Shown here piece by piece: positions 38 to 856 of a stretch of DNA of 9,056 nucleotides. The DNA comes from a virus (lineage: Duplodnaviria > Heunggongvirae > Uroviricota > Caudoviricetes), in the IMG/VR virus record IMGVR_UViG_3300029473_000092, one strand, 5' to 3'. Positions within the stretch are counted from its first letter, which is position 1, and each line of letters opens with the position of its first letter. The position numbers and the translations under genes are program-made. The notes under the pieces are model-generated. The model worked only from the letters and a program-made list of their open reading frames with translations. It did no database searches and had not been told where the DNA came from.

Positions 38-856
38 TCACCCCCTGAATCCTGCCGGGATCTGGCTGTAGTCCACGTTGTCGTAACTGGCTTTGAAGTA
101 CGGGTCCTCGCGTCTGGCTGCAGATACCGCAGGAACTTCCCAGGATTCTTCGAAATGACGATCCGGACCAAAGAACGTGACAGCCTGTTTCACAAATTGT
201 GTGCCGCTGTTACCCATCGCAGATACCCAGCCCGCGTAGCGTTTCACACCTTCCAGCATGGTTTCGGGGTTTACCCCCTCATTCAAACGGGCTTTCCAGG
301 CTTTGAAGGCTGCAGATTTTGAATTGCCACCAGCACGTTTGGGATATGCCAGCCATGCCTGCTCAAACTCCGGAGAGTATTCCGGTCGGTTTGAACGAAC
401 TCGCACGGACTCATCAACTGATGCACCAACAGCTATTGGTTCATTGACTGGTTCTTTGACTGGTTCAAAAGAGTGACTGGTTCTGGGTGAATCTCCTGCA
501 CTACCCCCTGGTGCAACTCCTGCACTACCTGGTGAATTTGCTGCACCAGATAGTGAATTATTTGCACTACCCCCTAGTGAATCTCCTGCACCATCCAGAT
601 GAAGGAGATAGATATTACTTGAGTTACCTTTTTCACCTTTCCGGGTGACTTTTTTTACCAGCCCGGACTCACAAAGGGCCGCAATATGATTCATCACAGA
701 ACGTTTGCTAATCTCGCACTGGTCAGCAATATGCTGGTAGCTGGGCCAGCACTCACCCTGATCGCTGGCATTATCAGCCAGCTTGATCAGAACCAGTTTT
801 CGCAATGGATTACCCACTCGAATTTTCATCGCTTTAACCATCAGCTCCATACTCAT
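38..856 (-). CDS. Phage replication initiation protein, lambda O-like (N-terminal HTH DNA-binding domain, repetitive Gly/Ser/Ala linker, C-terminal domain resembling YdaU/DUF1376-type prophage replication proteins)
   Basis: 272-codon ORF. ATG at 856 is preceded by GGAGG 6 nt upstream. N-terminus (…LRKLVLIKLADNASDQGECWPSYQHIADQCEISKRSVMNHIAALCESGLV…) is typical of phage replication-protein HTH domains. The C-terminal resemblance is from memory, not a search. Iteron-like repeats lie within the gene. Confidence 0.85.
   Translation of the reverse strand: MSMELMVKAMKIRVGNPLRKLVLIKLADNASDQGECWPSYQHIADQCEISKRSVMNHIAALCESGLVKKVTRKGEKGNSSNIYLLHLDGAGDSLGGSANNSLSGAANSPGSAGVAPGGSAGDSPRTSHSFEPVKEPVNEPIAVGASVDESVRVRSNRPEYSPEFEQAWLAYPKRAGGNSKSAAFKAWKARLNEGVNPETMLEGVKRYAGWVSAMGNSGTQFVKQAVTFFGPDRHFEESWEVPAVSAARREDPYFKASYDNVDYSQIPAGFRG
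485..595. repeat. Five tandem iteron-like direct repeats (21-24 bp period) inside the O-like gene; candidate replication origin
   Basis: Units 485-508, 509-529, 530-550, 551-574, 575-595 with consensus about RGTGAA-N4-CTGCAC-tacc. Unit 2 has internal dyad symmetry (GTGCA…TGCAC). Preceded by three GACTGGTTC copies (446-454, 458-466, 475-483). A moderately AT-rich stretch follows at 601-660. On the coding strand these repeats encode the Gly/Ser/Ala linker, as lambda ori iterons sit inside O. Confidence 0.5.

What the first reader, a model, noticed from the sequence alone, without database searches (positions are those of the whole stretch)
485..660. Origin-like iteron array with dyad symmetry inside the replication initiator gene
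Five 21-24-bp direct repeats, spaced at about two helical turns and containing GTGCA/TGCAC dyads, lie within the O-like gene right after the segment encoding its DNA-binding domain, followed by a moderately AT-rich stretch. This mirrors lambda ori-within-O. The repeats also encode the protein's flexible linker, so the DNA serves both roles.
Basis: partly seen in the sequence, partly recalled or inferred. Interest (0 to 1): 0.45.

Follow-up and report, generated by a model that had tools for sequence, protein, structure and literature searches.

The report
Phage replication origin inside initiator gene
Five symmetric 19-bp sites inside a prophage replication-initiator gene are almost certainly the protein's own binding sites (the phage origin), a lambda-like layout in a different initiator family, with an unexplained, strongly conserved DNA element beside them.

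Summary
The core GTGMA-N5-TKCAC occurs five times in the window, only at 487-591 (0.06 expected), spaced 24/21/21/24 bp. It lies in the minus-strand gene 38-856, which is identical to phage SfV orf39 'replication protein'. The sites sit just after the winged-helix (HTH_36) DNA-binding domain and encode a predicted disordered linker.

Comparison with about 40 diverged homologues shows selection on the DNA, not the peptide. Every lineage has an array of 19-bp dyads here. Half-sites change symmetrically between lineages (GTGCA/TGCAC, GGGCA/TGCCC, TGCCA/TGGCA, GGTCA/TGACC and others) and track the recognition helix, not the C-terminal domain. The encoded peptides are unrelated, and units occur in different reading frames.

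Natural chimeras place this module in front of the lambda O C-terminal domain and a lambda P gene. So it is an iteron origin of the lambda/P22 kind, built on a different initiator family.

Its role is unknown.

No binding or replication experiment exists. The classification is a new member of a known kind.

The parts
38..856 (-). Replication initiator gene (272 aa). It is identical to SfV orf39 and is the 'HTH protein' of Eru6-type Stx phages.
   Evidence: ORF listing and translation. tblastn gives 100% identity to SfV orf39 'replication protein'. PHROG 270 'replication initiation protein', E 1.7e-88. Pfam HTH_36, E 1.8e-11.
598..856 (-). Coding region of the N-terminal winged-helix DNA-binding domain (aa 1-86). 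The predicted recognition helix is aa 51-64, at window 665-706.
   Evidence: Pfam HTH_36 and DnaD_N hits. AlphaFold2 model with pLDDT 74-87: H3-11, H17-28, H40-47, H51-64, E67-73, E79-85. Foldseek finds only winged-helix proteins.
575..593 (.). Iteron 1 in gene orientation: TGGTGCAggagaTTCACTA on the minus strand.
   Evidence: Dyad symmetry 5 of 7.
551..569 (.). Iteron 2: TAGTGCAaataaTTCACTA.
   Evidence: Dyad symmetry 6 of 7.
530..548 (.). Iteron 3: TGGTGCAgcaaaTTCACCA.
   Evidence: Dyad symmetry 6 of 7.
509..527 (.). Iteron 4: TAGTGCAggagtTGCACCA. It carries the perfect GTGCA/TGCAC core.
485..503 (.). Iteron 5: TAGTGCAggagaTTCACCC. In every lineage the last iteron abuts the conserved element at a fixed distance.
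437..487 (-). Conserved flanking element CCC AGA ACC AGT CAC TCT TTT GAA CCA GTC AAA GAA CCA GTC AAT GAA CCA. It holds direct repeats of GAACCAGTCA at 474-483, 457-466 and 445-454, plus a degenerate fourth copy at 433-442. It encodes P-RTSHSFEPVKEPVNEP.
   Evidence: 3 copies in the window; only 3 in the whole mEp460 genome, all here. Codons are nearly invariant across lineages, whereas synonymous sites of the winged-helix domain are saturated. The 9-mer is read in all three frames across lineages. Copy number varies from 2 to 5 in close relatives.
597..640 (.). Least stable, AT-rich duplex segment of the gene, adjacent to iteron 1. It overlaps the codons for the last beta-strand of the winged helix.
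   Evidence: 32.5% GC at 601-640. Nearest-neighbour stability at the 96-98th percentile of the window.
149..379 (-). Coding region of the C-terminal helical domain (aa 160-236). It is an exchangeable module, presumed to contact the replication machinery.
   Evidence: AlphaFold2 helices 162-236. PHROG hits to 'DnaD-like helicase loader' and 'primosomal protein' families cover aa 145-272. The domain shuffles independently of the iteron class.

Best explanation
The region is the replication origin of an SfV/mEp460/Stx 'Eru6'-type lambdoid prophage, embedded in the gene of its own initiator. The five 19-bp dyad-symmetric units at 485-593, spaced about two helical turns apart, are iterons. Each is probably bound by a dimer of the initiator's N-terminal winged-helix domain (inferred). 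The same bases encode a disordered Gly/Ser/Ala-rich linker between the DNA-binding domain and the C-terminal domain, and the sequence of that linker is dictated by the DNA sites. By analogy with lambda, multimeric binding would distort the DNA and open a flanking segment. The candidate segments are the AT-rich 597-640 and the conserved GAACCAGTCA-repeat element at 437-487, which occupies the position of lambda's AT-rich region. The C-terminal domain would then bring in the helicase. In this phage type no phage-encoded loader or helicase is annotated, so the host DnaB/DnaC system is presumably used (inferred). The origin lies in the rightward early operon, so it is transcribed through, as in lambda. 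Shown here: the repeat anatomy, its uniqueness in the genome, selection at the DNA level, co-variation with the DNA-binding domain, and interchangeability with the lambda O N-terminal/ori module. Inferred: binding, dimer stoichiometry, the unwinding site and helicase recruitment.
For: (1) The iteron core occurs 5 times against 0.06 expected, and nowhere else in the window or in the 44.5-kb mEp460 genome.
(2) The gene is a phage replication initiator with an N-terminal winged helix, a disordered middle and a helical C-terminal domain.
(3) About 40 representatives under 90% identical were analysed. Their linker DNA carries chains of 7-5-7 dyads spaced 20-25 bp: mean 3.0 per linker against 1.1 in codon-shuffled linkers.
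(4) Perfect 5-nt inverted repeats peak sharply at a gap of 5: 15.0 per kb against 1.2 per kb in the rest of the gene. Same-centre gaps of 3, 7 and 9 give secondary peaks; even gaps are only mildly raised, at 2-3 per kb.
(5) Half-sites differ between lineages by symmetric changes on both arms. In the positionally anchored last unit, 4.42 of 5 positions are complementary. Permuting right arms between lineages gives 2.64 +/- 0.33 (0 of 10,000 permutations reach the observed value), and sliding the right arm gives 0.8-1.9.
(6) The iteron class follows the recognition-helix motif. It is independent of the C-terminal domain cluster: GTGCA occurs with 7 C-terminal clusters, and one C-terminal cluster occurs with 6 iteron classes.
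(7) The peptide repeats are unrelated (GAGDSL, PSDKMSP, VTESH, PPMPSDG, GSENFAL). Units occur in two frames or both orientations within a single protein, with 22/23-bp steps.
(8) In the natural chimera L242, this N-terminal domain, iterons and element are fused to a C-terminal domain 61% identical to lambda O residues 159-299 (E 2e-67). The next gene is lambda P (PF06992, E 1.3e-62). In other relatives the next gene encodes a DnaC/IstB-like ATPase or a product annotated as a DnaB-like helicase.
(9) The layout matches the lambda origin, with iterons inside O, and the 'rep_origin' feature annotated by similarity to lambda inside P22 gene 18 (PMC5043065, PMC7466680).
(10) Copy number is polymorphic, from 1 to 9 units with 5 dominant. 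Lambdoid Stx phages likewise carry 6 iterons where lambda has 4 (PMC7466680).
Against: No binding, footprint, plasmid-replication or origin-mapping data were found for this family in the searchable literature. The key review (Weigel and Seitz 2006) and the SfV genome paper could not be read.
There is no lambda-like 40-bp AT tract. The best candidate is only 32.5% GC, and it lies within the domain-coding part on the opposite side from lambda's.
Some lineages have non-symmetric units (L108/L226, ZF40-type outer-arm dyads). Some population variants carry only 1-2 units (P0042, P0028, L214).
The mEp460 annotation lists no helicase, loader or primase, so the step after initiator binding is unexplained.
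Repeated binding sites could instead, or additionally, serve autoregulation.
Confidence: 0.8

Rival explanations
1. The sites are genuine binding sites of the initiator's winged-helix domain, but they act as operators. They would provide autoregulation, act as a transcription roadblock within the early operon, or titrate the protein. The actual origin would lie elsewhere in the prophage.
For: Dyad-symmetric repeats bound by winged-helix dimers are typical of repressor operators, and the Foldseek hits are mostly MarR/PadR/ArsR-type regulators. No strong AT-rich unwinding tract is present. Some variants have only 1-2 units.
Against: The protein family is annotated and grouped as replication initiators. 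The module replaces exactly the lambda O N-terminal domain, iterons and AT-rich region in chimeras that keep the lambda O C-terminal domain and P. The sites occur nowhere near promoters and nowhere else in the genome. No other iteron-like array was seen in the window.
Confidence: 0.1
2. The repeats are only a by-product of a low-complexity flexible linker. Slippage-prone coding repeats would be selected, if at all, for peptide length and flexibility, with no function as DNA.
For: All spacings in the window are multiples of 3. The peptide is Gly/Ser/Ala-rich and predicted to be disordered. Copy number varies by whole units.
Against: Peptide repeats are unrelated between lineages, whereas the 19-bp dyad geometry is constant. 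Units occur in different frames and orientations within one protein, with 22/23-bp steps. Symmetric two-arm co-variation is highly significant. Inverted-repeat enrichment is specific to one centre-to-centre geometry. A peptide-level constraint predicts none of these.
Confidence: 0.03
3. This rival concerns the flanking element at 437-487 only. Its DNA-level conservation would reflect its role as a homologous-recombination junction for exchanging N-terminal/ori and C-terminal modules among lambdoid phages, or selection on the RTSHSFEPV peptide, rather than a role in origin function.
For: Chimeras cross over exactly at this element: P0062, P0072 and L242. N-terminal and C-terminal modules are freely re-assorted.
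Against: Codons are invariant even between Vibrio, Aeromonas, Klebsiella, Pectobacterium and E. coli phages whose neighbouring synonymous sites are saturated. The 9-mer AACCAGTCA is kept as direct repeats in all three reading frames, giving different peptides (RTSH, EPV, NQS), which argues against peptide-level selection. Some lineages changed all copies in concert, to GAACCTATCA or GAACCATCA. This fits a binding site, though it also fits homogenisation by slippage or gene conversion. The recombination-junction reading is not excluded and may coexist with a role in origin function.
Confidence: 0.07

Closest known systems
Bacteriophage lambda ori within gene O (and 933W/P27 Stx-phage variants)
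   Same: An array of 19-bp, nearly palindromic initiator-binding sites lies in the middle of the initiator gene, between an N-terminal DNA-binding domain and a C-terminal recruitment domain. The sites bind dimers in lambda. Copy number varies between phages (4 in lambda, 6 in Stx phages). The origin lies in the pR operon. Sources; PMC5043065; PMC7466680. Natural chimeras share lambda's O C-terminal domain and P.
   Different: The N-terminal domain is Pfam HTH_36/DnaD_N, not Phage_rep_O, and has no BLAST similarity to lambda O. The iteron sequence is different. There is no 40-bp AT-rich tract on the C-terminal side; a conserved GAACCAGTCA direct-repeat element sits there instead. In SfV/mEp460 no P-like gene is annotated downstream.
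Phage P22 gene 18 / ori
   Same: The record annotates a 'rep_origin' feature, by similarity to lambda, inside the initiator gene. It has dyad repeats (GGTAAA...TTTACC) followed by an AT-rich stretch. A DnaB-type helicase gene follows, as the annotations of ZF40 and phiV039C also show for this family.
   Different: P22 gp18 is annotated 'replication initiation O-like', by similarity with lambda O, and shows no similarity to the window protein.
Replisome-organiser origins of Gram-positive phages (SPP1 gene 38/oriL, lactococcal and Lactobacillus phages), from my own knowledge of the literature (PMC6316719 surfaced in the search but was not read)
   Same: The initiator binds repeats located inside its own gene. 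The N-terminal domain is related to DnaD_N-type winged helices (Pfam DnaD_N hit, E 3.6e-5, below the curated cut-off).
   Different: Different hosts, repeat sequences and partner proteins. This comparison was not tested further here.
Iteron plasmids (RepA/pi/TrfA-type Rep proteins)
   Same: Winged-helix initiators bind arrays of roughly 20-bp sites spaced about two helical turns apart. Some Rep proteins also bind one strand of repeated 13-mers in the unwinding element (abstract of PMC4081077). This is a possible model for the GAACCAGTCA repeats.
   Different: Plasmid iterons are direct repeats bound by monomers and lie outside the rep gene (PMC5043065). Here the units are dyads inside the gene.

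Membership tests
Lambda-type 'ori within the initiator gene' (architecture) | An array of at least 3-4 initiator-binding repeats of about 19 bp, with internal dyad symmetry, spaced about two helical turns apart. | tested here: met
   Five units at 485-593, spaced 24/21/21/24 bp, with dyad symmetry of 5-7 of 7.
Lambda-type 'ori within the initiator gene' (architecture) | The repeats lie inside the initiator gene, between the DNA-binding domain and the C-terminal domain, and encode an inter-domain linker. | tested here: met
   The repeats encode aa 88-124, between the winged helix (aa 1-86) and the helical domain (aa 160-236). AlphaFold2 pLDDT is below 50 for aa 91-156.
Lambda-type 'ori within the initiator gene' (architecture) | Repeat sequence specificity is inherited with, and co-varies with, the N-terminal DNA-binding domain. 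| tested here: met
   At least 8 half-site classes track the recognition-helix motifs and are independent of the C-terminal cluster.
Lambda-type 'ori within the initiator gene' (architecture) | An AT-rich unwinding region lies next to the iterons, on the C-terminal side in lambda. | tested here: inconclusive
   The least stable segment (597-640, 32.5% GC) is on the N-terminal side. The C-terminal side carries a conserved element of roughly 40% GC (my own base count). Across the family, both flanks average about 42% GC against 52% for the array.
Lambda-type 'ori within the initiator gene' (architecture) | A partner gene for a helicase loader or helicase lies immediately downstream. | tested here: not met
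   The window ends 37 bp after the stop codon. In mEp460, cdtI and ST64B the next gene encodes a PerC-domain (YfdN-like) protein, and no helicase or loader is annotated in the genome. Relatives with other C-terminal domains do have lambda P, DnaC-like or DnaB-like genes.
Lambda-type 'ori within the initiator gene' (architecture) | Demonstrated initiator binding and cis-acting origin activity. | not testable with these tools
   This needs EMSA or footprinting, a mini-replicon test, or origin mapping.
Lambda O protein family (Pfam Phage_rep_O, PF04492) | Sequence membership of the N-terminal domain. | tested here: not met
   No Phage_rep_O hit at E <= 0.01. BLASTP against lambda O gives E 0.02 over only 22 residues. 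P22 gp18 gives E 5.3.
HTH_36-type phage replication initiators (PHROG 270/8540/391; Stx-phage 'Eru5/Eru6' HTH proteins) | An HTH_36 winged helix at the N-terminus, and membership of the replication-initiator PHROGs. | tested here: met
   PF13730, E 1.8e-11, above the cut-off. PHROG 270, E 1.7e-88. 98.5% DNA identity to the Eru6 reference Stx2a_WGPS2 (PMC8951638).
Iteron-plasmid Rep systems | Direct (non-palindromic) iterons bound by Rep monomers, located outside the rep gene. | tested here: not met
   The units are dyad-symmetric and intragenic.

The most novel reading that the evidence does not exclude
The 36-50-bp element that follows the last iteron (window 437-487) is a previously unrecognised functional DNA module of these origins. 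It consists of direct GAACCAGTCA repeats with near-invariant codons, kept in all three reading frames across phages of Escherichia, Klebsiella, Pectobacterium, Aeromonas and Vibrio. It could be a sequence-specific unwinding or helicase-loading element, or a single-strand binding site for a conserved surface of the HTH_36 initiators. It stands where lambda has its AT-rich region. Together with 'solo' initiators that lack any phage-encoded loader, this would define a distinct and widespread origin type (more than 5,000 homologous proteins).
Probability: 0.35. Interest if true: 0.6.

Novelty: new member of a known kind. Interest (0 to 1): 0.42.

Why it matters
This replication module is carried by serotype-converting Shigella phages (SfV, SfII, SfIV), cdt phages, Salmonella ST64B and many Shiga-toxin phages (Eru5/Eru6 types). 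For those phages, replication control affects toxin output.

The published Eru classification lists the HTH_36 proteins but names no origin. Placing the origin, and the rule that links recognition helix to half-site, gives testable targets for replication studies, for phage typing and for building mini-replicons.

More generally, the family is an unusually clear natural example of dual coding. The DNA-binding sites dictate the sequence of a disordered protein linker. A neighbouring element is conserved at the nucleotide level in three different reading frames.

Tried and rejected
- Rfam scan of 300-900: only a chance mir-875 hit at 22 bits against a gathering score of 84, so no RNA explanation.
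- Sequence search of solved structures: nothing relevant.
- Foldseek against PDB: only generic winged-helix matches with E >= 0.012 and no match for the C-terminal domain, so the mode of helicase recruitment stayed open.
- NCBIfam: no family above its cut-off.
- GC skew of the whole mEp460 genome follows transcription direction and says nothing about the origin.
- The promoter/terminator scan found no promoter in the region and only a weak antisense terminator-like hairpin.
- Literature searches for a prior description of this origin returned nothing specific (SfV, ST64B, cdtI, mEp460, Eru types, replisome organiser). The SfV genome paper and the Weigel and Seitz review are not held, so prior description cannot be excluded.
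- The first related-loci scan returned only near-identical copies. Diversity had to be obtained with DNA-pattern scans. The first of those was ascertained on the element itself, so the codon test was repeated on the subset selected by a protein pattern.
- P22 gene 18 was considered as a family member and rejected.
- I looked by eye for DnaA-box and IHF consensus sites in the conserved element and saw none. No formal scan was run.
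Full report
**What is in the window**

The window is the early region of a lambdoid prophage of the SfV/mEp460/cdtI/Stx2c type. Bases 1-1100 are 99.4% identical to phage mEp460 and 98.5% identical to Stx2a_WGPS2, the reference for the 'Eru6' replication type (PMC8951638).

Five minus-strand ORFs lie in a row, apparently forming one operon:
- a Cro-like HTH gene (2766-3026)
- a CII/CP76-like gene (2222-2773)
- a Rha/Ash gene (1074-2225)
- a 74-codon ORF (853-1077)
- the gene of interest (38-856)

A CI-like S24 repressor gene (3124-3816) is divergent from them.

The product of 38-856 (272 aa) is 100% identical to SfV orf39 'replication protein'. It matches PHROG 270 'replication initiation protein' (E 1.7e-88) and has a Pfam HTH_36 winged helix at aa 17-67 (E 1.8e-11).

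An AlphaFold2 model gives three parts:
- a confident winged helix at aa 1-86, with the recognition helix at 51-64
- a disordered stretch at aa 91-156 (pLDDT below 50)
- a helical C-terminal domain at aa 160-236

Foldseek finds only generic winged-helix proteins.

**The observation**

It is correct. Tandem Repeats Finder reports 487-591 with period 24, 4.6 copies and score 77.

The core GTGMANNNNNTKCAC matches exactly five times in the window, at 487, 511, 532, 553 and 577. The chance expectation is 0.06. In the entire 44.5-kb mEp460 genome the same five sites are the only matches.

Spacing is 24, 21, 21 and 24 bp. Extended to 19 bp and read in gene orientation, the units are T[AG]GTG[CA]A-N5-T[GT]CAC[CT]A. 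Dyad symmetry is 5-7 of 7.

The units encode aa 88-124: GAGDSL GGSANNSL SGAANSP GSAGVAP GGSAGDSP.

**Is the DNA or the peptide under selection?**

This was the central question, so I collected diverged relatives from three sources:
- annotated phages found by tblastn
- 120 IMG/VR loci found with a DNA pattern for the flanking element
- 120 IMG/VR loci found with a back-translated protein pattern for KLVL[IL]KLADNA, about half of them not in the previous set

After de-replication at 90% identity in the N-terminal domain, about 40 lineages remained. Five results follow.

1. Every lineage has repeats at this position, but the peptides are unrelated. Examples are GAGDSL, PSDKMSP, VTESH, PPMPSDG, GSENFAL and GGAGAA.

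2. The DNA geometry is constant.
   - Chains of 7-5-7 dyads at 20-25-bp steps average 3.0 per linker, against 1.1 in codon-shuffled linkers.
   - In a test that does not presuppose the units, perfect 5-nt inverted repeats in the linkers peak at a gap of 5. The density is 15.0 per kb, against 1.2 per kb in the rest of the genes.
   - Same-centre gaps of 3, 7 and 9 give secondary peaks. Even gaps are only mildly raised, at about 2-3 per kb.

3. Half-sites differ between lineages by changes on both arms. The classes seen are GTGCA/TGCAC, GTGAA/TTCAC, GGGCA/TGCCC, TGCCA/TGGCA, TGCCG/CGGCA, GGTCA/TGACC, GTAAA/TTTAC, GGGAA/TTCC and GTGAC/GTCAC.
   - I took the last unit of each array, defined only by its fixed distance from the flanking element.
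   - In it, 4.42 of 5 mirrored positions are Watson-Crick complementary.
   - Permuting right arms between lineages gives 2.64 +/- 0.33, and 0 of 10,000 permutations reach the observed value. Sliding the right arm gives 0.8-1.9.

4. In several lineages units follow each other at 22 or 23 bp, so they are read in two frames, or they occur in both orientations within one protein. Examples: L100 reads GAPPAP, VVQQIH and SESPAL; D96a reads VTESH and GDRESH.

5. The half-site class follows the recognition-helix motif and not the C-terminal domain.
   - The motifs are [KE]RSV[MQ] for GTGCA, R[ST][ST]VK for GGGCA and K[ST]AV[RK] for TGCC.
   - GTGCA iterons occur with seven unrelated C-terminal clusters. 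One C-terminal cluster occurs with six iteron classes.

These are the signatures of binding sites for a dimeric DNA-binding domain that co-evolve with that domain. They exclude a purely peptide-level explanation.

**Is it an origin?**

The direct evidence is comparative.

In the IMG/VR locus L242, the HTH_36 domain, its iterons and the flanking element are fused to a C-terminal domain 61% identical to lambda O residues 159-299 (E 2e-67). The next gene is a lambda P homologue (PF06992, E 1.3e-62). L220 and L237 look the same by eye, though no comparison was run for them.

So this module substitutes exactly for lambda's N-terminal domain, four iterons and AT-rich region. Other relatives are followed by a DnaC/IstB-like ATPase gene, or by genes annotated as DnaB-like helicase or as an unspecified 'replication protein' (2907 nt in F403).

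The layout equals that of lambda, where ori maps within O as 19-bp inverted repeats that bind O dimers, followed by a 40-bp AT-rich region (PMC5043065; annotated iterons). It also equals P22, whose record annotates a rep_origin, by similarity to lambda, inside gene 18.

By sequence, however, the protein is not a lambda O/P22 gp18 family member.

Copy number is polymorphic in natural populations:
- 1 unit: P0042
- 2 units: P0028
- 5 units: the dominant form, a 272-aa cluster with 2,852 member sequences and 64 of 71 scorable IMG/VR loci (of the 80 fetched)
- 7 units: L114
- 8 units: cdtI and P0008
- 9 units: P0001 and P0024

Lambdoid Stx phages likewise have six iterons where lambda has four (PMC7466680).

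**The flanks**

Positions 601-640 are 32.5% GC, and 597-638 contains the least stable 30-mers of the gene, at the 96-98th percentile of the window. In gene orientation, though, it precedes the array and encodes the last strand of the winged helix.

GAA CC.

- **Repeats.** It contains direct repeats of GAACCAGTCA. There are three copies plus a degenerate fourth in the window. These are the only copies in the mEp460 genome.
- **Codon conservation.** Among lineages whose invariant winged-helix residues use fully randomised synonymous codons (mean codon-identity probability 0.41), the codons of this element are almost invariant, at 0.92-1.0. Arg is always AGA, Thr ACC and Ser TCT. The result holds, at 0.74-1.0, in the subset chosen by protein pattern only.
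- **Reading frames.** The 9-mer AACCAGTCA is read as R-T-S-H, as E-P-V and, in other lineages, as N-Q-S. That is all three frames.
- **Concerted change.** A few lineages changed all copies together, to GAACCTATCA or GAACCATCA.
- **Recombination point.** Recombinant proteins cross over exactly here.

The element occupies the position of lambda's AT-rich region. I regard it as part of the origin, perhaps the unwinding or loading site or a second class of initiator site. A role as a recombination junction cannot be excluded. Its function is unexplained.

**Mechanism proposed**

Dimers of the winged-helix domain bind the five phased iterons. The resulting nucleoprotein complex, helped by pR transcription through the site, opens a flank. 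The C-terminal domain then recruits the helicase.

The mEp460 annotation lists no helicase, loader or primase, and the gene downstream of rep encodes a PerC-domain protein. The SfV type is therefore an initiator-only module that must use host proteins. That step is inferred and is the weakest part of the model.

**Novelty**

The architecture is textbook for lambda and P22. The application to this widespread HTH_36 family (5,428 homologues at E <= 1e-5) was not found in the searchable literature. The papers that define the Eru types never use the word 'iteron', and the passages I read do not name an origin.

Two likely sources could not be read. I therefore classify it as a new member of a known kind. 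The frame-independent conserved flank is the one really unexpected feature.

Noticed in passing
window 437-487 (minus strand): A direct-repeat element sits immediately after the last iteron (GAACCAGTCA, three copies plus a degenerate fourth). Its codons are nearly invariant across distant phages, and across lineages the repeat is read in all three frames. It also coincides with the crossover point of natural chimeras.
   Followed up: yes
L250, linker of the rep gene (first 'iteron' position): One lineage has TGTGGATAACTTATCCACA in place of the first iteron. This is two inverted perfect DnaA boxes (TTATCCACA), suggesting host DnaA takes part in that origin.
   Followed up: no
L242 746-2283; L220; L237: Natural chimeric initiators. 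In L242 an HTH_36 N-terminal domain and iterons are fused to the lambda O C-terminal domain (61% identity), followed by a lambda P gene. L220 and L237 look the same by eye but were not compared.
   Followed up: yes
L287 (mEp460 complete genome); L001 2547-3035: This viable phage has no annotated helicase, helicase loader or primase. The gene after rep encodes a PerC-domain (YfdN-like) protein, so the module is an initiator-only type.
   Followed up: partly
window 633-657 (+ strand): A terminator-like hairpin (TCACCTTTCCGGGTGA followed by CTTTTTTT) lies on the strand antisense to the rep gene, inside the AT-rich stretch next to iteron 1. The scan found no excess of such sites over shuffles, so it may be chance.
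   Followed up: no
window 6660-6706: A 23-nt tandem duplication (TGGGCAGCCAAAGGATATACAGAA, two copies, 83% matches) lies inside the PAPS-reductase-like gene 6301-7323.
   Followed up: no
window 3444-3473: A 9-nt tandem repeat (TGATGTCAT, 3.3 copies) lies inside the CI-like repressor gene, overlapping the antisense ORF 3093-3452.
   Followed up: no
window 853-856: The stop codon of the 74-codon ORF (853-1077) overlaps the rep start codon (ATGA). The Rha/Ash, CII-like and Cro-like genes overlap in the same way, which suggests one translationally coupled early operon running through the origin.
   Followed up: no
plasmid records NZ_CP148393.1 (44.6 kb), CP077666.1 (38.9 kb), NZ_CP019281.1 (33.8 kb): Phage-sized records deposited as 'plasmids' carry this ori region at 98-99% identity. 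They may be excised or episomal copies of such prophages assembled as separate replicons.
   Followed up: no
P0040 (247 aa) and P0042 (242 aa), E. coli population variants: One variant lacks the conserved element and the last iteron through a deletion. Another retains a single iteron. These are probably defective prophage copies.
   Followed up: no
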